Source: Elusimicrobiota bacterium (lineage in GTDB: Bacteria; Elusimicrobiota; Elusimicrobia; FEN-1173). Taken from it: a stretch of 64,000 nt of DNA. The notes beneath the pieces are model-generated. The model searched no databases and had not been told where the DNA came from. It saw only the letters and a program-made list of their open reading frames with translations. The stretch is taken from positions 25,161 through 89,160 of the forward strand of contig JADKCG010000002.1 in assembly GCA_016714745.1 (NCBI GenBank), given 5' to 3'. Shown here in pieces: positions 18,163 to 42,298 of the stretch. Position 1 is the first letter of the stretch, and each line of letters starts with the position of its first letter. Both the position numbers and the translations under genes were made by a program.

Positions 18163-18211
18163 TGATGAACTCTTTTTTTTAGATACCCGATTGTCCGGAC
18201 CGGGAACTGGT

Positions 18212-24332: not shown

Positions 24333-25326
24333 ATAATTGGATTTCTTTTTGGGCGATATGCCCTACCACCTGATCGGATTGATTAATTGTAAAAAATTGG
24401 GCCCGAGGAGATAAACGCGCACAACGGCCAGTAATGTCCTTTGGGCGGATCTGAGCTCCTCGTCGAATGGGACGCGCCGCTACTATTAATTTCCGCTTGG
24501 ATCGCGAATAGTCCTGTTCTGAATGGGACAGTAAAAAGGACGGTGCACCCAGAGCGGCGTGGGTAAGCTTCAAACACTGAAGAAGTTGATCAAACTGGGA
24601 TGGGTCATACGCTGATTGCCAATCGTATAACGTCTCCCTTTCTTTCAAAAAGGCGTGTTTTTCAATACAGCACGCACCCACCCCCATAGCGAGACAAGGC
24701 ACATGTGCCGAGAAAGGGTCAGAAGCCGGAGAATGGTCCATGTAACCAACCGGACAGCCGTATCGCTCTCTCAAAAATTTAATTCGATTCACGTTCGACT
24801 CCACTATTGGAGTAGGGAACGCCTGAAACCCCACCATGAGACAGAACGCCTTTCCCGCACACAAACTGACCATCGCGTCGATTTCGCTCAACGTCGCGCC
24901 CCCAACGGAGATCAGGACTGGTTTTCCATATGAAATGACTTTTTTAATAAAAGAATCGTTCCCAATGTCACTGGCATAGATCTTAAAACCGTCGGCGCCA
25001 ACTCGATCCGCCAATGCCAATGATTTTTCGCCAAACACATCGAAATAGGCTTTTTTCCTTGCGCGATGAACGAGCCGAACAATTTTTGAGAATTCCGATT
25101 GAGGAAATTCAAACGATCTAAAGAGTTGATATTGGGGATGAATCGGAGTTAAAAAATCATCCGCCACAATGTACTGGAATTTAACGGCAGGCACCGCCGT
25201 GCGACAGAGGGCCTCCGTCAAACGGCGCAAATAGCTGAGAGAGCCACCATGGGAATTGGCGATCTCTGCAATGAGGAGCGGAACGGCATGGGGCTTTTTA
25301 GACAAAGGAAATCTCCCGGTTTTCAT
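24298..25326 (-). CDS. NeuB-family nonulosonic acid synthase paralogue with an SAF-like tail
   Basis: VPLLIAEIANSHGGS...AVKFQY...GYMDHSP...IEKHAFL. Start placed at MKTGRF (25326), giving an ATGA overlap with the flippase stop. Confidence 0.75.
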   Translation of the reverse strand: MKTGRFPLSKKPHAVPLLIAEIANSHGGSLSYLRRLTEALCRTAVPAVKFQYIVADDFLTPIHPQYQLFRSFEFPQSEFSKIVRLVHRARKKAYFDVFGEKSLALADRVGADGFKIYASDIGNDSFIKKVISYGKPVLISVGGATLSEIDAMVSLCAGKAFCLMVGFQAFPTPIVESNVNRIKFLRERYGCPVGYMDHSPASDPFSAHVPCLAMGVGACCIEKHAFLKERETLYDWQSAYDPSQFDQLLQCLKLTHAALGAPSFLLSHSEQDYSRSKRKLIVAARPIRRGAQIRPKDITGRCARLSPRAQFFTINQSDQVVGHIAQKEIQLFEVISPESIYG

Positions 25327-30808: not shown

Positions 30809-31403
30809 CGTTGCCTCCTTTCAATCTTTGCCCGCCTCTTACGTATTCGTCCCTCAACAACCCCATACGAAAACAGTCCACGTACGAACCGTCTACATAA
30901 AAATGCTGCCGCAAAATCCCCTCCACTTTGAACCCAATGCGCAGGAACGCACGGTGAGACGCCTCGTTGCCCATGATCATTCCGCAGTAGAGTTTGTGTA
31001 AATTCAGTCGCCCAAAGGCATGCTCAACAACGAGCCGAATCGCTTCTGTTCCGTATCCTCTGCCGCGAGACCGCTTGTCTCCGATCAAAATGCCGACCTC
31101 CGCATGACGGTCTTTCCATTGGATATCGGTTAATGAAATATTTCCCATATGTTTTTTGCTTTTTTTCAAGAAAATACCAAGGAGAAGGCCATTTTTATTG
31201 AGCTCATAGGTGCGGACATACGTCCGCAATTCTTGAACAGTCACGGGGAATCGTCCAACGGCCATAAATCGAGTTGTGTCTTGGTCATTGACCCAATCCA
31301 CATAGTAGGACATATCCGCTTTTTCGGAAATCAGTCCAAGCACCACGTGCTTTCCTACTAGGTATTTTGTTTTCATCTTTCCCGCTCTGTCTATTATTTT
31401 CAT
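30795..31403 (-). CDS. GNAT N-acetyltransferase (RimJ/RimL-like); possible PseH-type role
   Basis: HAEVGILIGDKRSRGRGYGTEAIRLVVEHAF...NEASHRAFLRIGFKVEG (GNAT motifs A and B). Confidence 0.75.
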   Translation of the reverse strand: MKIIDRAGKMKTKYLVGKHVVLGLISEKADMSYYVDWVNDQDTTRFMAVGRFPVTVQELRTYVRTYELNKNGLLLGIFLKKSKKHMGNISLTDIQWKDRHAEVGILIGDKRSRGRGYGTEAIRLVVEHAFGRLNLHKLYCGMIMGNEASHRAFLRIGFKVEGILRQHFYVDGSYVDCFRMGLLRDEYVRGGQRLKGGNDDHA

Positions 31404-31440
31404 TCATCCACCCAATTCGCAAAACCAAATTTTTTGATTT

Positions 31441-32469
31441 TCATCGACAGTTTATTTGACAATCTTTGCAGGCCGCTATTTCGTCGTACCTTTGCTCCCT
31501 ATGCAATTGCCTCATGGCTGTGAGTTCGGGGCTGTGCCAAAGGTCTCGGATCGTGCGTGTTTTGATATCTCCGATGGGGTTCTTACTGTGGTGGTCCCCG
31601 CAACACATCAACACGGTGCCGTCAAAGAGAATGACCATTCTTTGCCAGAGTTGCGGGCAAGGAAAGCGTTCCTTTTGTTGAGGGGCCTTCACCTGGGCGT
31701 CTTCGCCTGCTTCATTGTTCCCGGAACGATAACGTGAGATGCCGATCCTGTTCACTTTATCCTCCCAAAAGTGGATGTAATCCTTGAGTTCCTTTTGGTT
31801 CATGGACATGTACACCATTTGAACCATGACGGAGGGGAATTTTGACCCCATTTCATTGCGAATCCGAATAAATTCAAGTATGCGTTCCAGAGTCTTTTCG
31901 TAATGGGCCCCTTTGCGAACGGCATCGTAAAGGGACGGGTCCATACTGTCCAGCGAGAACTTAATGCGCACCAGCCCAGCGGCGATGAGGTCCCGGGAGA
32001 GTTTTTCGTTGAGCAAGGTACCGTTAGTGTTAAACTGAACATCCATAATCCCCGCTTCGCGGGCCAAACGAACGAACTCCGCAATCCGAGGATGAAGGGT
32101 TGGTTCCCCTCGAAAATTAAACTTCACGGACGGTAGTTCTGCTTTGTTGAGCCTAATTTCGTCCATGATCTTCTTGAAAAGATCAATGGAAATTAAACCA
32201 GACGGCATGGTGTCAAAGGGAATTTGGCACATGGTACATCGGAGGTTACAGACGGCCGCCGCTTCCACATCCAAGTGCAAAGGGTAGTCGCCCACCGTCT
32301 GAGTGCGGGGAAGTTCGGACCAATTTTTTCGGTAGGCGAGATAGGAGGGGCCGAGGTATTTTTCCACATTGTCATGGCGGTCGGTACCGAGAACCTCTAA
32401 ATAGTCTGCGCTCACGGGGACCACCCGTTCCATTGGCAATAAGTCCATGGGAATAAATACAGTGTTCAT
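31441..32469 (-). CDS. radical SAM / SPASM-domain protein
   Basis: AAVCNLRCTMCQ (CxxxCxxC) and C-terminal CPQLWQR...LMCCGDH...CKDCQINC. Confidence 0.8.
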   Translation of the reverse strand: MNTVFIPMDLLPMERVVPVSADYLEVLGTDRHDNVEKYLGPSYLAYRKNWSELPRTQTVGDYPLHLDVEAAAVCNLRCTMCQIPFDTMPSGLISIDLFKKIMDEIRLNKAELPSVKFNFRGEPTLHPRIAEFVRLAREAGIMDVQFNTNGTLLNEKLSRDLIAAGLVRIKFSLDSMDPSLYDAVRKGAHYEKTLERILEFIRIRNEMGSKFPSVMVQMVYMSMNQKELKDYIHFWEDKVNRIGISRYRSGNNEAGEDAQVKAPQQKERFPCPQLWQRMVILFDGTVLMCCGDHHSKNPIGDIKTRTIRDLWHSPELTAMRQLHREQRYDEIAACKDCQINCR

Positions 32470-32530: not shown

Positions 32531-33238
32531 TCAAGTCGTCCGGCTTCGAGCGATACTTTCGGCAAATAAAAAATCCCGTTCCTCATCAATATCAAGCCCC
32601 TGAAAATGATCCAGCACATAATAATACGGTTTTTCGCCTATTCTATCCCCTATTATTTTCATCGTGTCCACATTTGTGATAAAAACCGCTGAATTAACGA
32701 TATACCATTCAGGAAGCGTCTGGGTGCGTGGCCATTTCTCAGCTTTCCTAGAATAATTGACCGGACCGCTCTGGTCCCATATGAAGGTCTTTAAAGACGT
32801 GACCGACATTAGCGAATCAAACCCGCTATTCAACGATTCGACATACAGATCGATGGCCTTCGTCAGCACCCTGTCGTCTGCAAAGGGTTGAGTTGTATGA
32901 GTCCATAAAACGTGCTTGGTTTTTATCTTTGGGGCAATATGTTTGATTAAATCATCGGTGCTTGTGGAGCTTCCTGCGAATTTCGGATCCCGCCGTTCCA
33001 CCCTAATTGATGAAACATCCTCTCCCGCCCCTTTGAGCCGATCCAAAATGTCTGTTATTTCCGGCACATCCGTATCCACCACGATCTCGTCCAAGGCTTT
33101 CACCCTTAATAACTGCTTGATTTTGAGTTCTGTCAACCCAAAGGGATATGGACCGAAGGGACGGGTATTTTTATTTAGGACCCTTTGACTCCCCGCACGA
33201 ATGGGGAGAACAGCCGAGATGGTTTCCCCCTTCATCAT
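32531..33238 (-). CDS. acylneuraminate (NeuA-type) cytidylyltransferase
   Basis: ISAVLPIRAGSQRVLNKNTRPFG N-terminus. Start placed at the MMKGE Met, which abuts the stop of the upstream gene (ATGATGA). Confidence 0.7.
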   Translation of the reverse strand: MMKGETISAVLPIRAGSQRVLNKNTRPFGPYPFGLTELKIKQLLRVKALDEIVVDTDVPEITDILDRLKGAGEDVSSIRVERRDPKFAGSSTSTDDLIKHIAPKIKTKHVLWTHTTQPFADDRVLTKAIDLYVESLNSGFDSLMSVTSLKTFIWDQSGPVNYSRKAEKWPRTQTLPEWYIVNSAVFITNVDTMKIIGDRIGEKPYYYVLDHFQGLDIDEERDFLFAESIARSRTT

Positions 33239-34929
33239 GTCGTGGCCTCCCAAACGACCCGATGGTGCTTCTGAAAGATCGTGGGCGTGATGATCCAAAA
33301 AGCCGCGGATTTCTCAGCAAGGATAACGCGCGCTGTCTCCAATTCTTTATGTGTCATCTGATTCAGTGTTTCAAATTCTTGCCTCTTCTCGTCCGATTCA
33401 TCTTCCGCTTTTTTCTCCGGCGAATCCGAGTTGGGGTAATAAAAAAGATTTCTCTCGTTGGGAGAAAACCCATCCATCCCTGCCACATAGATTTCCTTGA
33501 ACCCGATCGCGGCCATCGACAAAATGGCTTGCACTCCTGAATTGGTTGGCAATTTATGGGGAAAAACGTACTCTTTGTTTAAAGAAAATGCGTCAATGGG
33601 AATTCTCGAAATAGTGTCTTGAGGCCCCCCCTCTCCCTCGTCGATTTCGATGTAGGGGTTGAGAATCACTTGCACCCCAGCTCCCCCCTTTTGATAATTT
33701 TGTCTTAACCGACGGGCGCTTCCAAAAAAGACGGCATCCGTTCGTTCTGGAAGAAAATTATTGTTTACACACACGACCGCGCATTTCGTTTCATCAACGA
33801 ACCGGCGGATGGAGTCCATGGATGTGCCCAGGGTCCCTCCCCCACACGCGATCAACACTTTCCCTTGGGAAGATCCGACCAGGCCCCTCACTTTTGTCGT
33901 GGTGACGGGCATCAACTTTTTTGCTTTTTCTATTTTGTATTGGAAAGCAACATTGATATTTTTTTCTCGGTTAAATTCAGCTCGTTCGTCAAAAGGGATT
34001 TTACTGAGTGCAAGAAAAACCTCTTTGGCTGAATAAATTTTCAGTTTCAGCATTTCCCCAGCGTAGTGGGGGTGACAATTCAGCGCCCCAGAGACGACTT
34101 GCGCCACTGAATTTCCCCATTTATATTGTTTTTTTAACGGCTCCATGTAAATTTCAGCGAAATCAAGCAAAGGGAGCGCGTTGTATCTTGTCGGACTAAC
34201 TTGACCAAGATAGAGAAGCAATGTCTCTATGGGTAAATTTCCTCCTCCCCTCCCCATCCCATTAACAGAACCATCAATGATGGAGACACCCCCTTGAATG
34301 GCCTCAAGTGTGTTGGCAAAAGCCAGTTGGAGATTGTTGTGCGGATGAAATCCCAGGGGGGCATCTGTCTGCGATCGGATGGTTTTTAAAATGTCCCTCA
34401 ATTTTGATGGGATGAGACTGCCAAAGCTATCCGCAAGATAAAAATACGTCACTTGTTTTTTATACTTTTCCATAAGACAGGCAAGGGCATTCATTTCCGA
34501 TGGGGTGTAATTTGAAATTCCCATGAAATTGACACTGGTTTCGTACCCCTTCCCCGCCAATTGCGCGGCAAGCTCAGCTCCCCGTTCCGCATCGGCCTTG
34601 CGTGTGACGATTCGAAGAATGTCCGCCCCAAAATCCCCCTGACGGGGAAACAGGCCAGCGATCAACTCTTTTGAAAAATCAACCAGGAGGGAAACACGGG
34701 CTCCGTTTTTGAATGAGCCGCGGATATCATTGATTAGTTTTGAGTCGCAGTTCCTAAAAAGGGAGGCCTTATCTGCCAAGGGGCTACAAAATCCCAACTC
34801 AACGTATTCGCACCCGGATGAGCTGACCGCCCAATACAGAGCTTTTCCGAAATCCACACTAAAATTCCAGTTGTTAATGTAACCGCCGTCGCGGATGGTA
34901 CAGTCAAGTATTTTGAGATTTTCAAACAT
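33235..34929 (-). CDS. two-domain fusion: N-terminal DRE-TIM metallolyase (HMGL-like aldolase) plus a C-terminal Cst-II/Maf(DUF115)-like Rossmann domain
   Basis: N-terminal LDCTIRDGGYINNW and GFHPHNNLQLAFANT (metal ligands of HMGL-like aldolases). C-terminal KVLIACGGGTLGTS...AVVCVNNNF...PTNSGVQAILSMAAIGFKEIYVAGMDGF parallels the Campylobacter Cst-II motifs VIIAGNGPSL...FRCNQFYFE...TSGVYMCAVAIALGYKEIYLSGIDFY as I recall them. Confidence 0.6.
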   Translation of the reverse strand: MFENLKILDCTIRDGGYINNWNFSVDFGKALYWAVSSSGCEYVELGFCSPLADKASLFRNCDSKLINDIRGSFKNGARVSLLVDFSKELIAGLFPRQGDFGADILRIVTRKADAERGAELAAQLAGKGYETSVNFMGISNYTPSEMNALACLMEKYKKQVTYFYLADSFGSLIPSKLRDILKTIRSQTDAPLGFHPHNNLQLAFANTLEAIQGGVSIIDGSVNGMGRGGGNLPIETLLLYLGQVSPTRYNALPLLDFAEIYMEPLKKQYKWGNSVAQVVSGALNCHPHYAGEMLKLKIYSAKEVFLALSKIPFDERAEFNREKNINVAFQYKIEKAKKLMPVTTTKVRGLVGSSQGKVLIACGGGTLGTSMDSIRRFVDETKCAVVCVNNNFLPERTDAVFFGSARRLRQNYQKGGAGVQVILNPYIEIDEGEGGPQDTISRIPIDAFSLNKEYVFPHKLPTNSGVQAILSMAAIGFKEIYVAGMDGFSPNERNLFYYPNSDSPEKKAEDESDEKRQEFETLNQMTHKELETARVILAEKSAAFWIITPTIFQKHHRVVWEATT

Positions 34930-35574
34930 AAGGTATTAGGTCTTTCATGTTTTTAATTTTTTTCCACACATGGACTGAATCCATTTTTGCTCCAGACGGG
35001 TAATAAACAAACCGAATCCCAAATGAAAAAGCCGCGTTGGCATCGGCCGTCGCATCCCCGACAAAAATTAAGTTTTCCGGAACCATCTTTTGTGACCCCA
35101 AAATTTGTCTCACGCCTTCCTCTTTTGAAATCGGGGACCCGAAGATCCCGTTGAACTTTTCAAAAATCCCCAGTCGAGTTAAGTGAAAATCAAGTTCGGC
35201 CCGGGGGGCTCCTGAAACAACAAACATCTTAATCCCTTTATTGGCACAGATGGAGGTCAAATCCGAAACCCCCGGTGTCAGCTGTGCCGTTTCCATATAA
35301 TTGTCAATGCATTTGTCAAGGGAATCAAGCATTGATATTAACGAATCTTCGCTCACAGGCACCCTCACGATATTATTAATGAAATACTTCACTTGATTAA
35401 CCCGCCCTACGCCGTAAGAAGCCAAATGATATTCCATAAATTCCCGTTCCCACTGTGGGTAATATTTGGTGACCCATTCCCTGAACGCTTTAACTTTTTT
35501 TCAATGGAATCGATCAATACCCCGTCGCAATCGAAAAGAATGGCTCTTATTTTATCCTTTTTCCTCTCCATCAT
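34922..35574 (-). CDS. HAD-superfamily hydrolase, frameshifted at a T7/A7 homopolymer in this assembly
   Basis: Own translation from the ATG at 35574: MMERKKDKIRAILFDCDGVLIDSIEKK (HAD motif I, DxDGV). It leaves frame at the T-run 35495-35501. One extra base gives ...VKAFREWVTKYYPQWEREFMEYHLASYG, joining ORF 34922..35437. Confidence 0.8.
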
Positions 35575-35583
35575 AGAATCGTA

Positions 35584-37530
35584 TTAATTTTCCAGAGCCC
35601 CACGAACAAAGTGAGAAATGTTGGCGGAATAATCTTTCGTGTATTTGTAGGGCTCAAAAGATTTATCCCCGATAGGCGTTTTATTCCTTTTGGCCTGGCG
35701 GAGATAGTCAAGTGCCTTTGGGAGCAGGGGAGTCTCTGTGACGTAGCAAACGGGAAAAAAGGGTCCATCCGTCTCCGCGACATTTTTGGTGAACTCTGGC
35801 GTATTGAAATGGTTGTATCGTGACCAACGATCGTACAACAACACGGGAATGCCGTTTATCAAGGATTCATCAATGACTGTCGAGGAATAGCTCACAACGA
35901 CGTCGGCGCAGGCCAACACCTGGGAAAAGGGCCCCTCTCTGTGGATAATAAGATGGCTTGGATTGCCGAGCCTATTCCTTATTTCATCATCATTCAGTAT
36001 GAACCCCGGGTGGAGCCTGAGGACATAGCGCGCGTGGTCCAATCGACCGACCGCCTCGAGCATATCCCGCACACCGATAAAAAACTCGTCCAGTGTTTCA
36101 ATAAACAAGTATCGCTCCCCACTTCGGTTTTTTATCGTGGAAGCGTGCACGACAACAAAATCATCATCAGCCAACCCCAAATTGCGTCGTGCTTTTTTAA
36201 TTTTGTTACCATCCAGATCCACAAATATCAACGGGCCTGTTCTCAGTCCGACCCCCCGGACAAAATCATACTTCTCTTTAAAATAATTAAAATGTGCTTC
36301 TTGAACGGGTGTCGCGAGGGCAACGACCGGGAAAACCCCCAGCATGAATCCGCGACACAAATTGAGCAGTTCAACTTCGTAGGGCGGGGAAGAAGGCACC
36401 GGGTGCGATCCGTGGGAGATAAACAGAGACGGTTTATTTGACAACGAAAAGAGTTCGCCAACCACACCATACAGATCAACCCCCACATGCGACAGAAAAA
36501 TAGATCGTTTGCAGAATGCCATATACTGATCGACCCTTTCCGCTTGCATAACAAGGGCCTCCATGTGGGGAAACAAACCGGCGCGCGCTTTCTTTATCAA
36601 TATGGATTTTAAGGAAATACCGAAAAGCATGCACACCCCATCCGGGAGAGATTGAAGCGCCTGGTCAAGAGCGCTCGTCATTTCCGCTCGCCCCGGAAAT
36701 GAAGGGACCAAAGACTTCCGAGGCCGTGTTGGGATAAAAAATCGCACAGGCCTCCACCTCACAAACAGGCGCGCCAGGGACACGAAGTTCCAGAGAAGAC
36801 TTTTGACGTTGTAAGACTTTCTCGTTAGAACGACATAGGTCGGGTTGTGGGGTTTTAATATTTTTTCAACCTTATTGAAGGATTGACCGAGGGGCGGTGT
36901 AAAAATAACTTTTTCCCTCTGTAAGGTTGAAAAAATGATTCGTGCGAGCACGTCGGAAAAGAATCCACATGCTTTATCCCAAACTCGGGATACCCGGAGC
37001 GGAGAAGTGGACGATTTTTCATGGCCGGCCAAAGCAACGAACGGGATATTCCTCTGTCGGCAGAATCGTTCCGCTATTTCACCTAAGAATCTCTCTTGAT
37101 CGTCGATCATTGCTGTATTTTTAACGATCGATGACGAAAAGAAATAGAGAGTCAGACCTGGATAATGATCAATAATGGAATTCACGATCCATGCCATCTT
37201 GAAGAGGTGATTGGCATAAAAGCGGAGATGAAGGGCGACCTCAATCCCATACGAGATTTTTACCCCAAATTGATCCGCGAATTGGAACAAAGAACGAATC
37301 GACTCCATCAGCGGCTCAACGGCGTAAATAAGGGTCGAATGGATGTGGGGGGGGAAGAACGCAAGGGTGTCTTCGAAAACAACTTGTTTTTTGCTCAAAA
37401 AAACTTGCAAAGCCGGCTCGCAAGCAACAATCGTAAATTCAGAAATCGCAAGACCATGCGCAGAGCAATACTCCTCCAATAGGCAATATTCATTAGTGAA
37501 TTCAAGGACAGCGACATGTCGATCGGTCAT
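35584..37530 (-). CDS. large uncharacterised protein with a GT-B-like C-terminal half
   Basis: 648 aa. C-terminal FVVVHAST...YVLRLHPG...VLACADVVVSYSSTVIDESLINGIPVLLYD resembles the GT-B donor-binding end, as in 4083..5867. Confidence 0.5.
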   Translation of the reverse strand: MTDRHVAVLEFTNEYCLLEEYCSAHGLAISEFTIVACEPALQVFLSKKQVVFEDTLAFFPPHIHSTLIYAVEPLMESIRSLFQFADQFGVKISYGIEVALHLRFYANHLFKMAWIVNSIIDHYPGLTLYFFSSSIVKNTAMIDDQERFLGEIAERFCRQRNIPFVALAGHEKSSTSPLRVSRVWDKACGFFSDVLARIIFSTLQREKVIFTPPLGQSFNKVEKILKPHNPTYVVLTRKSYNVKSLLWNFVSLARLFVRWRPVRFFIPTRPRKSLVPSFPGRAEMTSALDQALQSLPDGVCMLFGISLKSILIKKARAGLFPHMEALVMQAERVDQYMAFCKRSIFLSHVGVDLYGVVGELFSLSNKPSLFISHGSHPVPSSPPYEVELLNLCRGFMLGVFPVVALATPVQEAHFNYFKEKYDFVRGVGLRTGPLIFVDLDGNKIKKARRNLGLADDDFVVVHASTIKNRSGERYLFIETLDEFFIGVRDMLEAVGRLDHARYVLRLHPGFILNDDEIRNRLGNPSHLIIHREGPFSQVLACADVVVSYSSTVIDESLINGIPVLLYDRWSRYNHFNTPEFTKNVAETDGPFFPVCYVTETPLLPKALDYLRQAKRNKTPIGDKSFEPYKYTKDYSANISHFVRGALEN

Positions 37531-38445
37531 TTAGGTATATCCGATCGCGATAAGGGCATCGGAAACCCCTCGCACAGAGAGTTGTTTCTTATAATAATTC
37601 TCAACATCTGCGTATTCAGATGCTATGGTAAATGCAGGGTTCTCAATTTGGGGTTTGCCAACCCGAAGCCAGTGAAAGAGATTTTCCAATCCATACCGTT
37701 GCTCAAAATAGACACATCCCCTCTTGTATCCCGCTTTTTTTAAACATTCTTTAAGCGTGATTGCCGAAAAATAATGAAGATGGGCCCTAATCCAATAGAA
37801 ATCGTTGTAAGCCTTACACGTTCTCAGCAGTAATTCCTCCACATTTGGGACCTCGCATATTAAAACCCCCCCCTTTTTAAGAAGGGCTTTGCTTCGCAAA
37901 AGGAAATCAACTGGATTGCGTGTATGTTCCAATACATGGAACATGGTGATAACGTCAAACGGACCCCCTTTCGGGATCTCGGATAAAATGTCCGCGTCAA
38001 ACAATGGAGCGGAGATATTTCTTTTTCCAATCATTCGCCGCTCTTGGCTTATTTCAACCCCAACCACTTTGTGGTATCCACGGCGAAACATCCCATCGAT
38101 AAAAAAACCATAGCCCGCCCCAACGTCAAGAATTTTGCTCTGCTTTGAACGGCAAAACTTCGAAACAAAAGCTATGTGACGATCGGTATCGAATTGGTTG
38201 TTCTTTTTAAGTGCGCTAAAATAAATTTTCTTTCCGACAGACTTGTCCTGCTGATTCAAATCGTAATACGCCTTTTCCTTTTCAATGTTTGGCTGTGGGT
38301 ATAGTTGGACATGCCCGCATGTGAAACAACAATATACTTTGCTTTTTTGAGAACCATCCCTTAATCGGGAGGAGACAAGCCGATGCCTGTTATGTCCACA
38401 CAAAGAACATTTAAAATTATTCGTAATCATGAGGTGGATCCCCAA
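37531..38445 (-). CDS. class I SAM-dependent methyltransferase with an N-terminal zinc ribbon; first gene of the island
   Basis: CSLCGH...CFTCGHVQLYPQP, then ILDVGAGYGFF (motif I). Same architecture as 5864..6886. Confidence 0.8.
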   Translation of the reverse strand: MGIHLMITNNFKCSLCGHNRHRLVSSRLRDGSQKSKVYCCFTCGHVQLYPQPNIEKEKAYYDLNQQDKSVGKKIYFSALKKNNQFDTDRHIAFVSKFCRSKQSKILDVGAGYGFFIDGMFRRGYHKVVGVEISQERRMIGKRNISAPLFDADILSEIPKGGPFDVITMFHVLEHTRNPVDFLLRSKALLKKGGVLICEVPNVEELLLRTCKAYNDFYWIRAHLHYFSAITLKECLKKAGYKRGCVYFEQRYGLENLFHWLRVGKPQIENPAFTIASEYADVENYYKKQLSVRGVSDALIAIGYT

Positions 38446-38905: not shown

Positions 38906-39843
38906 CGGGACTTCTCCAACTCATTTGTGAGGCGAGCCACTTGGGTAGCGAAGGCGGCGAGATCGGTGAGGGCATTTTGGGGTTTGGCGTTGCGGGCGAG
39001 ACCTTCCGCTAAATCGTGGTGGGCCTTTGGCAGATTATTATAGAACAGGGTCAGGGCGTTGAGGGTTTCCATGGCGTCGGCGTATTCGGCGTTTAGGTTA
39101 AAGATCGAGCGGGCGAGGGTGTTGCGGCCGGGGGTGCGTTTGTCGTCCCAGCGGGCGTGGATCGCGTCCATTCGGTTGGCGTAGGCGATCTTGAGGTCGG
39201 TTCGGATGAGGTCGAGCAGGGTCAGACAATGGGTCGCGTAAGATTCTACCCAAGGCTGGTTTTCCTGAACAGCGGATCGCAGATTTTTGGCGCGACGGGA
39301 TCGTTTGACATTGCGCAAGCTTTCAGAAGAAAACGCGGCGGCTCCCGCGGGAAAGAGGTTGGGCCTGCCCTTCACCTGAACAATCGTTGCCCCGGCGTCG
39401 CGAAGGCTTTGGGTGATGGCGGCGGCCAGGGCGTCGCGGTCTTCTGACTCCTTCGGATGTCCCTCTGCCACTTGAACGAGGAGCGTGGTATAGCCCCCGA
39501 AAGCGGCGTTCAGTTCTTCCAATGCACGGAGGGTGAGCCGGGCTTCCCAGTGGGGGACCGTGACCGGCGTTGACCAGGCATATCCTTTTACCTCTTTTAG
39601 CATGTGGTCGCTTAAGGGGGCGTTTTTGGTTTCGGCCAGGGCATCGACGTCCGCTTCTCGCGTCCAATCCACGTCCCGGGCCATTTCGGTTTCGATCCCC
39701 TTTTGGGCGGTGGCGACAGACGTTTCAAAAGATTTAAATGCGCCGGGGCGAAGAGAGGCGCAGGCGGTGAGACTAAGAAGGAACAATTGGGGAATAAATG
39801 CACTGGAGGAGAGAGCCCCATTCCGCGTCCGAGGGATTTTCAT
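38902..39843 (-). CDS. hypothetical lipoprotein, predicted mostly helical
   Basis: MKIPRTRNGALSSSAFIPQLFLLSLTAC: signal peptide with an L-T-A-C lipobox. The ATG at 39843 forms an ATGA overlap with the upstream stop. Confidence 0.6.
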   Translation of the reverse strand: MKIPRTRNGALSSSAFIPQLFLLSLTACASLRPGAFKSFETSVATAQKGIETEMARDVDWTREADVDALAETKNAPLSDHMLKEVKGYAWSTPVTVPHWEARLTLRALEELNAAFGGYTTLLVQVAEGHPKESEDRDALAAAITQSLRDAGATIVQVKGRPNLFPAGAAAFSSESLRNVKRSRRAKNLRSAVQENQPWVESYATHCLTLLDLIRTDLKIAYANRMDAIHARWDDKRTPGRNTLARSIFNLNAEYADAMETLNALTLFYNNLPKAHHDLAEGLARNAKPQNALTDLAAFATQVARLTNELEKSR

Positions 39844-41171
39844 GGAACGGCCCAATAGCCGCCTGTTCGACGGCTCCCTTTGTGAACGATCGCTCTCCGC
39901 ATTTTAAGTTGAGCCAACCAACGCTCGATATTCTTGGGTGATGTGGTAAGGGCTCTCGCCAATTGTGGGGTCCGAATACCGGGTTTCTGGACGATCAACG
40001 AGAGAAGGCCGTTTATTCCCTCATTTATTCCCTCATTTATTCCCTCACTGCCGCCGGGGTGGGGAGGGCGTTGCAATTTGATTCGGAAGAAGGGGCCTGT
40101 TTTGATTTTGGGCGCAGGAAGATCGACCGCGCGCATGTGGTCGCGCATGCGGCGCAGACCACTGCCCAACCGCTCCACTTTTTGCATTCGGGCAAAAATG
40201 TCGGCAATTTTTTCGTTTCGCCGGATGGAAACGCCCATCAGCGTTTCCGCTGTCATGCCATCGGGAACCCGCCCGGGATTGACGATTTCCACTCGATCAT
40301 CGTAAATTTCCACCATCAAGCTGGTCCCTCGGAAACCGTAGTCCCGATGAACAATCGCGTTGGCCACAGCCTCGCGCAACACCTCGACGGGAATTTCCAT
40401 GAGATCGAAACGGCGGGTGCCGTGGATTTCACTGCGCGTGTTCAGGTGTTTTTGAAGGAAAAAGAGAGCTTCATTAAATTGCGTGAGCAAATCGTCTTTG
40501 ACGTCTTTTCGATCAAAGACGTCGCGCCGTTCTTTGCCCTTAAACACAACAAAGGTGGCCTGGCATTGGGGAAACGCTCGTTGGGGGTCGCGACCAAAAA
40601 GGAGGATCCCCGCGTTGCGGATCCGATCTCCGTCCGCCAAGTTGAGGCTGGCTAAAACAGTGGACGGCGGCGCGCCCAGACGGCGGACACCCGCTTCTTG
40701 GAAAAAAGCGGCGACCTTTTTTGTGGAGATTTGTTTCCAGGTCACTGCCGCGTCAAACCGGTCTTCGAAAGAATCTTTCCCCGCCGCTTGGAAATGGAGA
40801 CCCAGTTCCTTTCGGTTCATTTTCTGAGTCACCGCGTCCATCCGTCGGAAATAGCCTGAAGCGCAACTGTATGGTTTTTCTTCTCCAGGCAAAACATCAA
40901 TGACCACCACATCGCCGATCTGAGTCAACTGGTGAATATCCAGCGGCGGCTCGCATTGGCGGGAGAGAGCCTGAATTTCAGCCTTGAGTCGGTTTGTCAG
41001 TTTTTCCCCCACCACACGGCCATCGTCTTTTACCCCCAACAGAATGCGGCCGCCCTTTGTGTTGGCGAAAGCGACGAGGTCGCGATCGATTTTAGGTGTG
41101 TATTTTTCCTTAAACTCAACGGAAAGGCCTTCGCCTTCCGCGAGAAGAAGTTTCAATTCTTCGGGAGTCAT
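39840..41171 (-). CDS. AlbA_2 (Schlafen-like) plus HATPase_c_4 plus C-terminal wHTH protein (the class often annotated RecG-like putative regulator)
   Basis: EGLSVEFKEKY...DLVAFANTKGGRILLGVKDDGRVVG (AlbA_2 N-terminus), LREAVANAIVHRDY (ATPase-like core) and a C-terminal HTH-like tail. The ATG at 41171 forms an ATGA overlap with the protease stop. Confidence 0.75.
   Translation of the reverse strand: MTPEELKLLLAEGEGLSVEFKEKYTPKIDRDLVAFANTKGGRILLGVKDDGRVVGEKLTNRLKAEIQALSRQCEPPLDIHQLTQIGDVVVIDVLPGEEKPYSCASGYFRRMDAVTQKMNRKELGLHFQAAGKDSFEDRFDAAVTWKQISTKKVAAFFQEAGVRRLGAPPSTVLASLNLADGDRIRNAGILLFGRDPQRAFPQCQATFVVFKGKERRDVFDRKDVKDDLLTQFNEALFFLQKHLNTRSEIHGTRRFDLMEIPVEVLREAVANAIVHRDYGFRGTSLMVEIYDDRVEIVNPGRVPDGMTAETLMGVSIRRNEKIADIFARMQKVERLGSGLRRMRDHMRAVDLPAPKIKTGPFFRIKLQRPPHPGGSEGINEGINEGINGLLSLIVQKPGIRTPQLARALTTSPKNIERWLAQLKMRRAIVHKGSRRTGGYWAVP
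40012..40047. repeat. perfect 12-bp tandem repeat x3 (tttattccctca) inside the AlbA_2 gene
   Basis: Read directly. Encodes (EGIN)x3 in the linker before the C-terminal HTH. Confidence 0.95.
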
Positions 41172-42298
41172 TTGGGAGGAATCCCCACAGAAATCCAAGA
41201 TTGCTTTACGGCTTTGGATTCGGGACTGCGGGAACCGTAAAGAATAGTCGCTTTTTCGACCGTCCCCTGTGCGATCGCGGCGAAATCACTTCGGGGCGAC
41301 AAAGAGAGGAGCGTTTGATACCAAATCTTTCCTGTTTTTTCCCACGATTTCCCGCCAATTTGCATGGCCGCCAGGTAGAAAGCGTGATTGGGAATGCCAG
41401 AGTTGATATGGACGCCGCCGTAATCATCTTCCCCCTCATACTTCTGTTTCATGTGGGCGGGTTGGGGGTCGGTGCCGATGTCGGGATCGTTCACATAGGC
41501 GGTGCCGGGAGCGGAAAAACTTCGGAGCGCTTTTCGCGTGAACGTTTTGATCAAGATATCGGCGCCGACCAGCCAATCGGCTTGTTTGACGGTTTGGTTT
41601 CTTCGCCACTGTTTAACGAGGATTCCCATAACGTCGGCGTAATGTTCGTTTAAGGCGCCGGATTCTCCCTGATACTCTAAATTTGCCGTATGGCTCACAA
41701 CGCCGTGGGTTAACTCGTGGGCGACCACGTCGAGGGATTTGGTAAAACGCACAAATGTGCGCCCGTCCCCGTCGCCGTACGCCATTTGCTCTCCGTCCCA
41801 AAAAGCGTTGGCATAGTGTTGGCCCACGTGCACACTGGAAATGAGGGACATGCCACGGTCATCGAGGGAGTTCCGGTTCAAGACCTCTTTGTAAAAATCG
41901 TAGGTGTCGCCGGAATAATCGTAGGCTTCGTTGACCGCGGGGTCCTTCGAGGGGCCATTCGGCCCCTTTTCACCTTCACTGCGGACCAGTTTTCCGGGGA
42001 GGGCGTGGGTGGGTTTGTGTTGGGCGTCGTAGATCAGGCGGTGTTTCTTGCCTGCCGGGGAAGGGATGGCGGCCATTTGGGGAAGTGTCGATAGGGTGGT
42101 TCGTGTGGCGCGGGCCGCGGCGGAGGCGGCCAGGTTCTCCAGGGCCCATCGACGAGTGATTTTGTCGGGAGACTCGGCCATCCGTTTGAGGATGAACGGG
42201 GGGAGGATGCCTTGACACACACGCTTAACAGCAAATCCCCCCTGGCCCCCCTTTTTCAAAGGGGGATAAAAATAATGAGGGTGAATTATGCGATCCAT
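41168..42298 (-). CDS. M4 (thermolysin-family) zinc metallopeptidase, protealysin-like, with no signal peptide
   Basis: VAHELTHGV (HExxH) ...GALNEHYADV (third zinc ligand Glu) ...GGVHINSGIPNHAF. The N-terminal CQGILPPFILKRM resembles the protealysin propeptide motif. The true start is uncertain and may lie downstream of 42298. Confidence 0.85.
   Translation of the reverse strand: MDRIIHPHYFYPPLKKGGQGGFAVKRVCQGILPPFILKRMAESPDKITRRWALENLAASAAARATRTTLSTLPQMAAIPSPAGKKHRLIYDAQHKPTHALPGKLVRSEGEKGPNGPSKDPAVNEAYDYSGDTYDFYKEVLNRNSLDDRGMSLISSVHVGQHYANAFWDGEQMAYGDGDGRTFVRFTKSLDVVAHELTHGVVSHTANLEYQGESGALNEHYADVMGILVKQWRRNQTVKQADWLVGADILIKTFTRKALRSFSAPGTAYVNDPDIGTDPQPAHMKQKYEGEDDYGGVHINSGIPNHAFYLAAMQIGGKSWEKTGKIWYQTLLSLSPRSDFAAIAQGTVEKATILYGSRSPESKAVKQSWISVGIPPK

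What the first reader, a model, noticed from the sequence alone, without database searches (positions are those of the whole stretch)
32531..35574. Fusion of a pyruvate-type DRE-TIM aldolase with a Cst-II/Maf-like transferase domain, flanked by HAD phosphatase and NeuA-type cytidylyltransferase
ORF 33235-34929 joins two domains.
- The first is a complete HMGL-like metallolyase domain, with DCTIRDGG and HPHNN metal ligands.
- The second has glycine-rich and GFKEIYVAGMDGF motifs that parallel the Campylobacter sialyltransferase Cst-II and DUF115/Maf proteins. Maf proteins are implicated in transferring Pse- and Leg-type sugars to flagellin.

The neighbours are a HAD hydrolase and a CMP-sugar synthetase. 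Aldolase, phosphatase and cytidylyltransferase make up the minimal logic of an ulosonic-acid branch (condense with a 3-carbon keto acid, dephosphorylate, activate), but it would run through a DRE-TIM enzyme instead of NeuB. The fusion would also tether the transferase directly. I am not aware of a described system of this kind.
Basis: partly seen in the sequence, partly recalled or inferred. Interest (0 to 1): 0.7.

Follow-up and report, generated by a model that had tools for sequence, protein, structure and literature searches.

The report
Aldolase fused to sialyltransferase-like domain
A real and widespread but uncharacterised gene fuses a pyruvate-type aldolase to a sialyltransferase-like domain and almost always sits beside a CMP-sugar synthetase and a phosphatase, which suggests an undescribed way of making and using an acidic (Kdo- or sialic-acid-like) surface sugar.

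Summary
ORF 33235-34929(-) is an intact 564-aa protein. Residues 1-330 are an HMGL-like/DRE-TIM metallolyase with the DmpG metal ligands. Residues 335-564 are a divergent member of the GT42 / PF01973 (Maf, MptE) fold, supported by family-level Pfam hits, a profile hit to Cst-I (E 1.6e-5) and Foldseek (top hit Cst-I).

The fusion is not an assembly artefact. There are 969+ full-length homologues in Bacteria and Archaea, including a 98%-identical copy in independent assemblies. The neighbouring HAD gene, however, does carry a homopolymer frameshift in this window.

In 36 non-redundant fused loci, a KdsB/NeuA-type cytidylyltransferase is present in 30 and a HAD phosphatase in 27. NeuB lies within 6 kb in only 3. 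Campylobacterales encode a triple fusion of aldolase, GT42-like domain and cytidylyltransferase. Related ~320-aa stand-alone aldolases have none of these neighbours.

Best reading (confidence about 0.45): a NeuB/KdsA-independent cassette that makes a CMP-activated 3-deoxy-2-ulosonic acid with a class II pyruvate aldolase. All chemistry is inferred.

The role of the C-domain is unresolved between transferase and kinase "adapter". It lacks the GT42 catalytic His, and an adjacent TagF-like GT-B protein could be the transferase. I found no published description.

The parts
33940..34929 (-). N-terminal domain of the fusion (aa 1-~330). HMGL-like / DRE-TIM metallolyase of the DmpG/BphI-related type, carrying 'RDGGY' in place of DmpG's 'RDGSH'.
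   Evidence: Pfam PF00682 E 2.4e-25. PDB 3dxi 'putative aldolase' E 1.9e-42 and DmpG 1nvm E 1.2e-19, with D14/H195/H197 aligned to the DmpG metal ligands. These residues are invariant in 48 homologues.
33238..33927 (-). C-terminal domain of the fusion (aa 335-564). Divergent GT42 / PF01973 (Maf, MptE)-fold nucleotide-binding domain. Conserved residues: G364, N389, N404 (Ser in this window), R407, G476, G484-x-D486-G487-(Y/F), Y498 and T548.
   Evidence: AF2 pLDDT 88. Foldseek: Cst-I E 4.9e-4, SteA and MjHPPK. 21/32 members hit PF01973 and 7/32 hit CST-I. Profile against PDB: Cst-I 1.6e-5. Conservation.
33235..33237 (-). Stop codon of the fusion, overlapping the start of the cytidylyltransferase gene (ATGA).
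   Evidence: Sequence read directly.
32531..33238 (-). CTP_transf_3 cytidylyltransferase (KdsB/NeuA/PseF type), 235 aa counted from the ATG at 33238.
   Evidence: Pfam PF02348 35.7 bits against a cut-off of 22.6. Best PDB relatives are CMP-Neu5Ac synthetases (6ifd E 8.3e-9). It is adjacent to the fusion in most fused loci.
34922..35574 (-). HAD-IA (HAD_2) phosphatase gene. Frameshifted in this window at the A7 run 35495-35501. Intact at 217 aa, with the DxDG motif, in the 98% relative.
   Evidence: Best PDB relative is 'phosphorylated carbohydrates phosphatase TM_1254'.
35584..37530 (-). 648-aa GT-B fold protein, distantly TagF-like (Glyphos_transf). Candidate cytidine-nucleotide-dependent transferase or polymerase.
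   Evidence: No Pfam hit itself. AF2 pLDDT 87.9. Foldseek top hits are TagF 3l7j/3l7i at E ~1e-9. 7/23 homologues hit PF04464. A relative, P0262, has it fused to the HAD.
37531..38445 (-). SAM-dependent methyltransferase. First gene of the co-directional block.
   Evidence: Pfam Methyltransf_23 E 5.8e-24.
31441..32469 (-). Radical SAM / SPASM enzyme downstream of the cytidylyltransferase.
   Evidence: Pfam PF04055 + PF13186. Also present in the close relative L001 and in L035.

Best explanation
The fusion is the core enzyme of a self-contained, horizontally mobile cassette that makes and uses a CMP-activated 3-deoxy-2-ulosonic (2-keto-3-deoxy) sugar acid without a NeuB/KdsA-type PEP-dependent synthase.

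**Proposed steps**
1. The N-terminal class II (metal-dependent, DmpG-related) aldolase condenses pyruvate with an aldose, most likely a phosphorylated one. The product is a phosphorylated 4-hydroxy-2-oxo acid.
2. The HAD-IA phosphatase removes the distal phosphate. This pulls the otherwise reversible aldol reaction forward.
3. The KdsB/NeuA-type cytidylyltransferase converts the free ulosonic acid and CTP into the CMP-sugar.
4. The GT42/Maf-like C-terminal domain binds the CMP-sugar and transfers the acid to a glycan acceptor. The adjacent TagF-like GT-B protein may act as a second transferase or a polymerase.

The logic is that of the Kdo pathway (KdsA-KdsC-KdsB-transferase) with a non-homologous first enzyme.

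**Shown:** the domain homologies, the intact metal site, the conserved synteny and the gene fusions that link the activities.

**Inferred:** the substrates, the order of steps, the role of the phosphatase and the transferase role of the C-domain.
For: **Domains and neighbours**
- N-domain: PF00682 above its cut-off. It aligns to 4-hydroxy-2-oxovalerate aldolases with the metal ligands D14/H195/H197 and with R13 conserved.
- The partner cytidylyltransferase passes PF02348. Its closest solved relatives are CMP-Neu5Ac synthetases. In most other loci it carries a KdsB-like 'IPARYxSSRxxGKPL' N-terminus (sequences).
- The HAD is closest to a sugar-phosphate phosphatase.

**Conserved linkage**
- In 36 non-redundant fused loci from about a dozen phyla, CTP_transf_3 is present in 29, plus 1 more as an internal domain.
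- A HAD is present in 27.
- The genes are translationally coupled in the window.
- Campylobacterales MAGs encode a single 767-768-aa protein: aldolase + GT42-like domain + CTP_transf_3.

**Independence from NeuB**
- NeuB is found within 6 kb in only 3 fused loci.
- Several carriers are Lachnospiraceae or Clostridia. By general knowledge these lack LPS-Kdo synthesis.
- So the cytidylyltransferase needs another source of ulosonic acid.

**Contrast group**
- 49 related stand-alone ~320-aa aldolases have Leu instead of Tyr17.
- None of them has a cytidylyltransferase or HAD neighbour.

**C-domain**
- Sequence-profile hit to Cst-I at E 1.6e-5 and to Cst-II at about 1e-3.
- Foldseek top hit is Cst-I.
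- PF01973 hits in 21/32 members.
- The same conserved residues are kept in 102 stand-alone homologues. It is therefore an autonomous enzyme.
- One locus carries both a fusion and an extra stand-alone paralogue, as expected for transferases with different acceptors.

**Literature**
- The PF01973 domain of Maf resembles Cst-II. Maf enzymes can transfer Neu5Ac and Kdo from CMP donors (PMC11339370).
- Ulosonic acids have so far been seen only in CMP-activated form (bioRxiv 10.64898/2026.04.20.719630).
Against: - No biochemical data exist for any member.
- The DmpG/BphI catalytic His is Tyr in the fused family. NCBIfam aldolase scores are far below their cut-offs (111 against 229 bits). The reaction may therefore differ from a simple pyruvate aldol addition.
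- The window C-domain itself is sub-threshold for every Pfam model. It has Ser at the >=88%-conserved Asn404.
- No conserved counterpart of the GT42 general base His188 is present.
- TM-scores to Cst-I are modest (0.46).
- Fusing the first and last steps of a pathway is unusual.
- A TagF-like GT-B protein accompanies the cassette in at least 13/36 loci and could be the real transferase. If it is a true phosphotransferase, it would call for a CDP-linked donor rather than a CMP-linked one.
- HAD is fused to this GT-B protein in a relative. This hints that the phosphatase could act at the transfer stage rather than on the free sugar.
- In this window two NeuB genes and a second cytidylyltransferase lie 8-15 kb away. 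Locally, the partner cytidylyltransferase could serve a NeuB product.
Confidence: 0.45

Rival explanations
1. Kinase-adapter model. The cassette is the same ulosonic-acid cassette, but the C-domain is an MptE-like (pyro)phosphokinase. It phosphorylates the aldose with ATP immediately before the fused aldolase acts. The HAD removes that phosphate afterwards. Together kinase, synthase, phosphatase and cytidylyltransferase reproduce the animal Neu5Ac route. Transfer to the glycan is done by the TagF-like GT-B protein or another glycosyltransferase.
For: - PF01973 is the family of the archaeal pyrophosphokinase MptE. Members match almost the whole model (positions ~12-165 of 171).
- Foldseek also finds MjHPPK (probability 0.90) and SteA.
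- The GT42 catalytic His is not conserved.
- The model joins two consecutive steps in one protein. It also explains why the C-domain and HAD travel together (27/36).
- Kinase and phosphatase 'adapters' fused to NulO enzymes are documented: GNE, and the Leptospira NeuB-phosphatase fusion (PMC3438082).
- A separate GT-B candidate transferase is present in many loci.
Against: - Sequence similarity to GT42 (E 1.6e-5) is stronger than to MjHPPK (0.039) and covers the second, donor-binding motif.
- Only one acidic residue (D486) is invariant, which is meagre for a Mg-ATP kinase.
- Stand-alone homologues occur in glycan loci with no phosphatase or nucleotidyltransferase nearby.
- One locus has two copies. 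That suits transferases better than a pathway kinase.
Confidence: 0.22
2. Teichoic-acid-like model. The cassette builds a CDP-activated, pyruvate-derived acid or alditol phosphate. The TagF-like protein then installs it as a phosphodiester-linked substituent or polymer. The C-domain provides the phosphate (as a kinase) or acts as a second CDP-dependent transferase.
For: - The adjacent 648-aa protein has TagF and TarL as top structural hits.
- 7/23 of its homologues hit Glyphos_transf.
- In the Deltaproteobacteria/Omnitrophota/Altiarchaeota type of locus, the cytidylyltransferase gene is directly followed by the TagF-like gene.
- A stand-alone C-domain homologue sits near a TagD-type cytidylyltransferase.
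- HAD domains fused to TagF-like capsule polymerases are known. This is my own knowledge of the Hib Bcs3 enzyme and was not checked here.
Against: - The cytidylyltransferase is of the KdsB/NeuA family (PF02348). Its characterised members make CMP-ulosonates, not CDP-alcohols.
- Ulosonic acids are reported only as CMP conjugates.
- The GT-B/TagF similarity is distant: no sequence hit to any PDB chain, and generic GT-B glycosyltransferases score almost as well.
- The TagF-like gene is absent from about half of the fused loci.
Confidence: 0.12
3. Tailoring model. The aldolase does not make a glycosyl donor. Instead it supplies a 4-hydroxy-2-oxo-acid side chain (an N-acyl or ketal substituent) for the NeuB-derived nonulosonic acid encoded in the same island, or it acts catabolically. 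The C-domain binds the CMP-nonulosonate that is being modified.
For: - The window has a full Pse/Leg-type set: a PseB-like gene, a split PseC-like gene, two NeuB genes, a PseG-like gene and a second CTP_transf_3.
- It also has many tailoring genes: methyltransferases, radical SAM enzymes, a GNAT and an Asn-synthase-like protein.
- NeuB genes also lie near the fusion in L004, L005 and L026.
Against: - Only 3 of 36 fused loci have NeuB within 6 kb, whereas 30 have their own cytidylyltransferase, one of them fused into the same polypeptide.
- A dedicated cytidylyltransferase and phosphatase are not needed for a side-chain donor.
Confidence: 0.08
4. Artefact. The fusion results from a missed stop codon or an indel that joins two genes in an error-prone contig.
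For: The window does contain at least two frameshifts: in the HAD gene at an A-run, and in the split PseC-like aminotransferase.
Against: - An identical-length, 98%-identical protein occurs in three independent assemblies.
- 969+ homologues of 520-600 aa share the architecture.
- 39 of 88 fetched loci encode it as one ORF.
Confidence: 0.01

Closest known systems
DmpG / BphI 4-hydroxy-2-oxovalerate aldolases (DRE-TIM metallolyases, PF00682; PDB 1nvm, 4lrs)
   Same: TIM-barrel HMGL-like domain. It has the same Asp/His/His metal site and the Arg that binds the 2-oxo-acid. It aligns over ~265 residues.
   Different: - The catalytic His21 is Tyr ('RDGGY').
- There is no DmpF dehydrogenase partner.
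- NCBIfam equivalog scores are far below their cut-offs.
- It is fused to a nucleotide-binding domain.
- It is embedded in glycan loci, not aromatic-degradation operons.
PDB 3dxi, 'putative aldolase' (structural-genomics entry, 320 residues)
   Same: Closest solved relative of the N-domain (E 1.9e-42, residues 4-309). It shares the 'RDGGY' motif.
   Different: No function is assigned. The deposited chain covers only the aldolase part. From memory only, and unverified, it is the N-terminal domain of a longer Bacteroides protein.
GT42 sialyltransferases Cst-I / Cst-II of Campylobacter jejuni (PDB 2p2v, 1ro7)
   Same: - Best sequence-profile and fold match for the C-domain.
- Shared N-terminal 'GNGPSL'-type loop.
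- Shared 'TSG...G(Y/A)KxIY(L/V)xG(I/M)D(F/G)Y' motif.
- There are equivalents of Asn31, Asn51, Asp154, Tyr156 and Tyr162. Residue roles are from my knowledge of the Cst-II literature.
   Different: - No conserved equivalent of the general base His188. Arg129 is not conserved in the window's subfamily.
- The Pfam CST-I cut-off is not reached (13.6 against 25 bits).
- TM-score is only 0.46.
- The domain is fused to an aldolase.
PF01973 (DUF115 / Maf_flag10 / MptE-like): Maf flagellin nonulosonic-acid transferases and the archaeal pyrophosphokinase MptE
   Same: 21/32 family C-domains match nearly the whole model. The Maf central domain is itself Cst-II-like (PMC11339370).
   Different: - Most scores are below the gathering cut-off, and the window protein does not match at all.
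- It lacks the extra N- and C-terminal domains of Maf proteins.
- No flagellar genes are nearby.
Kdo pathway KdsA-KdsC-KdsB-WaaA, and the Kdn / animal Neu5Ac 9-phosphate routes
   Same: The same four-step logic: condense a C3 keto-acid unit with a phosphorylated aldose, dephosphorylate with a HAD enzyme, activate with CTP using a PF02348 enzyme, then transfer.
   Different: - The condensing enzyme would be a pyruvate-dependent class II aldolase rather than a PEP-dependent KdsA/NeuB synthase.
- The HAD is type IA (capped), not KdsC-like.
- A transferase-like domain is fused to the first enzyme.
TagF / TarL CDP-alditol phosphotransferases (PF04464; PDB 3l7i, 8va1)
   Same: These concern the neighbouring 648-aa protein, not the fusion itself. 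It has a GT-B fold with TagF as the top Foldseek hit, and family-level PF04464 hits.
   Different: - No detectable sequence hit to any solved TagF-type chain.
- It is 200+ residues longer.
- The donor is unknown.

Membership tests
HMGL-like / DRE-TIM metallolyase superfamily (PF00682) | Score above Pfam's gathering cut-off | tested here: met
   89.9 bits against 29, E 2.4e-25.
HMGL-like / DRE-TIM metallolyase superfamily (PF00682) | Divalent-metal ligands (Asp of the 'RD' motif plus HxH) and the Arg that polarises the 2-oxo acid | tested here: met
   R13, D14, H195 and H197 align to DmpG R17, D18, H200 and H202. They are invariant in 48 homologues.
4-hydroxy-2-oxovalerate aldolase (DmpG/BphI; TIGR03217, PRK08195) | Curated equivalog or subfamily score cut-off | tested here: not met
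   97.2 bits against 286, and 111.3 bits against 229.
4-hydroxy-2-oxovalerate aldolase (DmpG/BphI; TIGR03217, PRK08195) | Catalytic His (DmpG His21 / BphI His20) after the RDG motif | tested here: not met
   Tyr17 at that position, in 91-97% of fused members.
4-hydroxy-2-oxovalerate aldolase (DmpG/BphI; TIGR03217, PRK08195) | Adjacent acetaldehyde dehydrogenase (DmpF/BphJ) partner | tested here: not met
   No such gene in the window or in the related loci. The neighbours are glycan genes.
GT42 sialyltransferases (Pfam CST-I, PF06002) | Pfam gathering cut-off | tested here: not met
   Window C-domain: 13.6 bits against 25, E 0.046. Among family members the best is E 8.7e-4, in 7/32.
GT42 sialyltransferases (Pfam CST-I, PF06002) | Shared fold and donor-binding motifs (N-terminal GxGPSL loop; GxDxY motif with two Tyr) | tested here: met
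   Foldseek top hit 2p2v, E 4.9e-4, probability 1.0. Profile against Cst-I E 1.6e-5, covering both motifs. hhalign E 1.8e-5.
GT42 sialyltransferases (Pfam CST-I, PF06002) | General-base His (Cst-II His188) in the lid region | tested here: not met
   No invariant or nearly invariant His occurs after the GMDGY motif in 32 fused or 102 stand-alone members. In the Cst-I alignment its His-containing segment faces non-conserved profile positions.
GT42 sialyltransferases (Pfam CST-I, PF06002) | CMP-sugar-dependent glycosyl transfer | not testable with these tools
   Needs enzyme assays.
PF01973 (Maf_flag10 / MptE-like) | Pfam gathering cut-off (34.6 bits) | tested here: not met
   The window C-domain gives no hit at E<=10. 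21/32 relatives hit at E down to 1.4e-8, but of 10 inspected only one (P0150, 36.0 bits) passes. The others score 16-32 bits.
PF01973 (Maf_flag10 / MptE-like) | Match over the whole domain model rather than a single motif | tested here: met
   Relatives align to model positions ~12-165 of 171.
CMP-ulosonate synthetases (PF02348: KdsB/NeuA/PseF), the neighbouring gene | Pfam cut-off and N-terminal CTP-binding motif | tested here: met
   35.7 bits against 22.6. 'LPIRAGSQRVLNKN' aligns to 'ITARGGSKGLLRKN' of 6ifd. The PseF equivalog cut-off is not met (51 against 206 bits).
HAD phosphatases (PF13419), the neighbouring gene | Pfam cut-off and motif I DxDG | tested here: met
   39 bits against 23.8. 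'FDCDGVLID' is present. The reading frame is broken in the window but intact in L001.
TagF-like phosphotransferases (PF04464), the neighbouring 648-aa protein | Pfam hit and GT-B fold closest to TagF | tested here: inconclusive
   The window protein has no Pfam hit. 7/23 homologues hit PF04464, best E 4e-7. Foldseek ranks TagF first at 7e-10, but other GT-B enzymes follow at 5e-9.

The most novel reading that the evidence does not exclude
A third, previously unrecognised biosynthetic entry to CMP-activated ulosonic acids exists, widespread in Bacteria and Archaea. In it, a metal-dependent DmpG-like pyruvate aldolase replaces the PEP-dependent NeuB/KdsA synthases. This aldolase is physically tethered to a minimal GT42-like transferase, and in some lineages also to the cytidylyltransferase. 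Synthesis, activation and transfer of a new acidic sugar would then be organised as one metabolon.
Probability: 0.3. Interest if true: 0.8.

Novelty: new variant of a known kind. Interest (0 to 1): 0.62.

Why it matters
Ulosonic acids (Kdo, sialic, pseudaminic and legionaminic acids) cap bacterial surfaces and govern immune recognition, phage adsorption and motility. All known de novo routes use PEP-dependent KdsA/NeuB-type synthases, and genome mining for such sugars relies on those markers.

A conserved aldolase-based cassette has three implications.
- It occurs in gut Lachnospiraceae and Bacteroidales, Campylobacterales, SAR11, Omnitrophota, Elusimicrobia and some Archaea. Many organisms scored as 'NulO/Kdo-negative' may therefore still display an acidic keto-sugar.
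- It would give a function to more than a thousand 'aldolase catalytic domain-containing' proteins and to a large set of ~230-aa GT42-like orphans.
- It would provide a pyruvate-dependent enzyme, cheaper than PEP-dependent ones, for chemo-enzymatic synthesis of keto-deoxy sugars.

The Rosetta-stone fusions make the hypothesis directly testable with four recombinant proteins.

Tried and rejected
**Artefactual fusion: rejected**.

**Direct Pfam or NCBIfam assignment of the window C-domain.**
- Nothing significant came back.
- It became interpretable only through family alignments (A1, A5).

**Profile of fused C-domains alone against PDB sequences.**
- Only borderline hits: 9c08 at 0.097 and SteA at 0.13.
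- Adding stand-alone homologues was needed to reach Cst-I at 1.6e-5.

**hhalign against a single Cst-II sequence.**
- It aligned only the 30-residue GxDxY motif.
- A full residue map to Cst-II therefore could not be computed. Equivalences for Asn31 and Asn51 rest on motif order.

**Literature searches.** None found a description of this fusion or cassette. The searches were:
- DUF115 + aldolase
- 'MptE-like'
- 4-hydroxy-2-oxovalerate aldolase + cytidylyltransferase or NulO terms
- ulosonic acid + aldolase/HMGL/DRE-TIM
- MptE/HPPK

. The library lacks most subscription journals.

**Treating the ~320-aa stand-alone aldolases as split versions of the fusion: rejected.**
- They form a distinct 'RDGGL' subfamily.
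- They have no glycan, cytidylyltransferase or HAD context.
- No separate C-domain gene lies nearby.

**Profile of the 648-aa neighbour against PDB sequences.** No hit. Only the fold search and family-level Pfam were informative.

**Promoter and terminator scan of 28.5-39 kb.** Promoter-like sites were at the chance level, and terminator-like sites were uninformative inside genes.

**Model coordinates** are not exposed to scripts. I could not superpose the C-domain model on the Cst-II/CMP-3F-Neu5Ac complex.

Full report
**1. What is in the sequence**

The minus strand of the window carries a long co-directional block of glycan-biosynthesis genes from about 250 to 38445.

ORF 33235..34929(-) is uninterrupted and encodes 564 aa.

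Upstream is a HAD gene whose stop overlaps the fusion's ATG by 8 nt. Downstream is a cytidylyltransferase gene whose ATG overlaps the fusion's TGA as ATGA. The three genes therefore look translationally coupled.

The gene order around the finding is:
- methyltransferase (37531-38445)
- 648-aa unknown protein (35584-37530)
- HAD (34922-35574)
- fusion
- CTP_transf_3 (32531-33238)
- radical SAM/SPASM (31441-32469)
- GNAT
- Asn-synthase-like protein

The 648-aa protein is 100% identical over 93% of its length to a hypothetical protein of an Elusimicrobia MAG. That probably identifies the source lineage.

**2. Is the fusion an artefact?**

The contig does contain errors or pseudogenes.
- The HAD gene has an A7 run (35495-35501) where the 98%-identical relative has A8. 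This breaks the frame after the DxDG motif.
- A PseC-like aminotransferase is split into two ORFs (19096-19824 and 19803-20237).

The fusion ORF itself is sound.
- A 564-aa protein 98% identical over its full length occurs on three independently assembled contigs, up to 503 kb long.
- 969 proteins were found at E<=0.001, and almost all of the 120 listed are 520-590 aa.
Of 88 loci in hand, 39 encode aldolase plus C-domain as a single ORF.

**3. The N-terminal domain**

- It passes Pfam HMGL-like.
- Its best solved relatives are the structural-genomics 'putative aldolase' 3dxi (E 1.9e-42) and the 4-hydroxy-2-oxovalerate aldolases DmpG/BphI (E 1e-19 to 1e-16).
- In the printed alignment to DmpG, R13, D14, H195 and H197 match Arg17 and the metal ligands Asp18, His200 and His202. 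All are invariant in 48 homologues.
- The DmpG catalytic His21 is Tyr17 here, in 91-97% of fused members.
- NCBIfam aldolase models score far below their cut-offs.

It is therefore a DRE-TIM metallolyase with an intact 2-oxo-acid/metal site. It is a distinct subfamily, not a DmpG orthologue.

**4. The C-terminal domain**

On its own, the window's C-domain gives only E 0.046 to Pfam CST-I and nothing to PF01973. Family-level evidence is much stronger.
- Of 32 C-domains cut from homologues, 21 hit PF01973 (best E 1.4e-8) and 7 hit CST-I (best 8.7e-4).
- The PF01973 matches span model positions ~12-165 of 171, but mostly stay under the gathering score.
- An AF2 model built with that alignment is confident (pLDDT 88, pTM 0.88).
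- Foldseek against the PDB gave Cst-I first (E 4.9e-4, probability 1.0, TM 0.46). M. tuberculosis SteA (probability 1.0) and the M. jannaschii pyrophosphokinase MptE/HPPK (probability 0.90) are also recovered among generic Rossmann folds.
- A profile that adds 62 stand-alone homologues hits Cst-I at E 1.6e-5, Cst-II and another GT42 enzyme at about 1e-3, MjHPPK at 0.039 and SteA at 0.062. The alignments cover both the 'GNGPSL' loop and the 'TSG...GYKxIYxxGxDxY' motif.

The Cst-II sequence I used for hhalign was recalled from memory. It was verified as identical to 1RO7.

Conserved C-domain residues are G364, N389, N404, R407, G476, G484, D486, G487, Y498 and T548.

The same set is conserved in 102 representative stand-alone proteins of 200-275 aa. 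The domain is therefore an autonomous catalytic unit, not a linker or a degenerate remnant.

Two caveats apply.
- There is no conserved His where GT42 has its general base.
- The window protein and its 98% relative have Ser at the usually conserved Asn404.

The literature confirms that the PF01973 domain of Maf resembles Cst-II, and that Maf enzymes can use CMP-Neu5Ac and CMP-Kdo (PMC11339370).

**5. Genomic context across lineages**

I called ORFs in all fetched loci and clustered the neighbours within 7 kb by BLASTP.

For 36 non-redundant fused loci:

| Neighbour | Loci |
|---|---|
| PF02348-type cytidylyltransferase | 29, plus 1 as an internal domain |
| HAD_2 phosphatase | 27 |
| ~600-aa protein distantly related to the window's 648-aa protein | 12 (13 counting the window's own type) |
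| Unannotated 495-aa protein with a similar HP...SS(T) motif pattern (by eye only) | 7 |
| HpcH/HpaI aldolase | 10 |
| LdpA_C-type Fe-S protein | 10 |
| B12-radical SAM | 9 |
| NeuB within 6 kb | 3 |

Three recurrent layouts emerge.
- Window type: HAD-fusion-CTP, or fusion-CTP-HAD.
- Firmicutes type: CTP-fusion-HAD.
- Deltaproteobacteria/Omnitrophota/Altiarchaeota type: a strongly syntenic B12 rSAM-fusion-FeS-HAD-HpcH-CTP-TagF-like block.

Two Campylobacterales MAGs encode a 767-768-aa triple fusion: aldolase (1-~330), C-domain (346-520) and a KdsB-like cytidylyltransferase (522-~690).

A relative of the window encodes the TagF-like protein and the HAD as one 869-aa ORF.

By contrast, 49 loci encode stand-alone ~320-aa aldolases. 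These have Leu instead of Tyr17, many other subfamily-specific residues, and no cytidylyltransferase, HAD or glycan neighbours.

The Tyr17 aldolase, the C-domain, the cytidylyltransferase and the phosphatase thus form one evolutionary unit.

Carriers include:
- Opitutales, Abditibacterium, Elusimicrobia, Omnitrophota, Deltaproteobacteria and Bdellovibrionales
- Bacteroidales/Muribaculaceae and Chitinophaga
- Campylobacterales/Helicobacteraceae, Pelagibacteraceae and Idiomarina
- Lachnospiraceae, Clostridia and Acidaminococcaceae
- Margulisiibacteriota
- Altiarchaeota and Euryarchaeota

**6. The neighbours in more detail**

- **Cytidylyltransferase.** Its closest solved relatives are CMP-Neu5Ac synthetases, and the CTP-binding motif is aligned.
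- **HAD.** Its closest solved relative is a 'phosphorylated carbohydrates phosphatase'.
- **648-aa protein.** It has no Pfam or PDB sequence hit. It folds confidently (pLDDT 87.9) into a GT-B enzyme. Its best Foldseek matches are the teichoic-acid polymerase TagF (7e-10), then other GT-B enzymes and TarL. 7/23 homologues hit Glyphos_transf.
- **Rest of the window.** Further along there is a canonical Pse/Leg-type set:
  - a PseB-like dehydratase
  - the split aminotransferase
  - two NeuB paralogues
  - a PseG-like GT28 protein
  - a second CTP_transf_3
  - a formyltransferase

. The aldolase cassette is therefore an additional branch in a composite island.

**7. Most likely mechanism**

PF02348 enzymes are known only to activate 2-keto-3-deoxy sugar acids as CMP conjugates. 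Ulosonic acids have only been seen CMP-activated.

A class II pyruvate aldolase makes exactly that class of compound, 4-hydroxy-2-oxo acids.

A HAD phosphatase between synthase and cytidylyltransferase is the hallmark of the Kdo, Kdn and animal Neu5Ac routes.

I therefore propose four steps.
1. Pyruvate plus a (phosphorylated) aldose gives an ulosonate(-P).
2. The HAD dephosphorylates it.
3. The cytidylyltransferase makes the CMP-ulosonate.
4. The acid is transferred to a glycan.

The linkage of these activities is shown by synteny and by fusions. The chemistry is inferred.

For the C-domain I favour a GT42/Maf-like CMP-sugar transferase, with a sub-claim confidence of about 0.4. The reasons are:
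- its sequence is closer to GT42 than to MptE;
- stand-alone copies occur in glycan loci without any phosphatase or nucleotidyltransferase, where ubiquitous CMP-Kdo could be the donor;
- one locus has a fusion plus a paralogue.

The main rival is that it is an MptE-like kinase 'adapter' paired with the phosphatase, as in the animal sialic-acid pathway. Such adapter fusions are documented (PMC3438082). The missing GT42 base and the presence of a separate GT-B transferase favour this rival.

A third option is a CDP-linked, teichoic-acid-like donor used by the TagF-like protein.

**8. Novelty**

Four features of the logic are known: condense, dephosphorylate, CMP-activate and transfer.

Three features would be new.
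- A non-homologous first enzyme.
- Its fusion to a GT42-like domain.
- The family of small GT42/PF01973-like proteins.

The protein family is abundant in databases under generic names such as 'aldolase catalytic domain-containing protein' and '4-hydroxy 2-oxovalerate aldolase'. The N-domain type has a deposited structure.

Five full-text searches found no functional description.

I rate it a new variant of a known kind, of moderate-to-high interest.

Noticed in passing
window 35495-35501 (within the HAD gene, 34922-35574, minus strand): A 1-nt shorter homopolymer (A7, against A8 in the 98%-identical locus L001) frameshifts the HAD gene just after its DxDG motif. It is either a sequencing error at a homopolymer or a genuine inactivation or phase-variable site.
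   Followed up: yes
window 19096-20237 (minus strand): The PseC/DegT-type aminotransferase is split into two overlapping ORFs, 144 aa (N-terminal part) and 242 aa (matching Pfam positions 128-359). This is a second frameshift in the island.
   Followed up: partly
window ~251-38445 versus 38900-64000: The glycan island has 41-49% G+C. The flanking housekeeping region (M4 peptidase, RNase E/G and others) has 52-59%. The step lies near 38.4 kb and suggests a horizontally acquired or hypervariable surface-glycan island.
   Followed up: no
window 31403-31441 versus L001 13490-17403: The 98%-identical relative carries four extra genes between the radical SAM and GNAT genes: a methyltransferase, a glyoxalase-like protein, a 578-aa unknown and a PP-binding carrier protein. 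All are absent from the window, so this is strain-level cassette swapping inside the island.
   Followed up: no
L026:2352-4658 and L064:1674-3977 (Campylobacterales MAGs): A single 767-768-aa ORF combines the aldolase, the GT42-like domain and a KdsB-like cytidylyltransferase. It is followed by the HAD gene.
   Followed up: yes
P0262 (869 aa, ENA contig of 6430 bp); corresponds to window 34922-37530: In a 62%-identical relative, the TagF-like 648-aa protein and the HAD phosphatase are one ORF. This hints that the phosphatase may act together with the GT-B enzyme.
   Followed up: partly
L005, L008, L011, L013-L016, L018, L019, L057: A strongly conserved gene block occurs in Deltaproteobacteria, Omnitrophota and an Altiarchaeota MAG: B12-radical SAM, fusion, LdpA_C-type 2x[4Fe-4S] protein, HAD, HpcH/HpaI aldolase, cytidylyltransferase, TagF-like protein. 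The roles of the second aldolase and the Fe-S protein are unexplained.
   Followed up: partly
L021-L088 (49 loci, e.g. Paenibacillus, Neobacillus, Bacteroidota, Lachnospiraceae): A very homogeneous stand-alone ~320-aa aldolase subfamily has 'RDGGL' instead of 'RDGGY'. It lies outside glycan loci. In 8 loci it is preceded by a ~105-aa protein, and in 6 by a ~216-aa protein that looks like a KDPG-type aldolase (by eye). Its function is unknown.
   Followed up: partly
window 33718-33720 (codon for residue 404 of the fusion): The window protein and its 98% relative have Ser where 88-93% of fused and stand-alone C-domains have Asn ('FFGN.RR'). The 72-76% relatives keep Asn.
   Followed up: partly
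window 22497-23555, 24298-25443, 17374-18246, 251-1045, 6899-10545: The island also holds two NeuB paralogues (one lacking the SAF domain), a second CTP_transf_3, a sugar N-formyltransferase and two B12-binding radical SAM enzymes. This suggests a heavily tailored nonulosonic acid alongside the aldolase cassette.
   Followed up: no
window 39840-41198 (minus strand): A Schlafen/AlbA_2 + HATPase_c_4 protein, an architecture often seen in defence or regulatory ATPases, lies at the high-GC edge of the glycan island.
   Followed up: no
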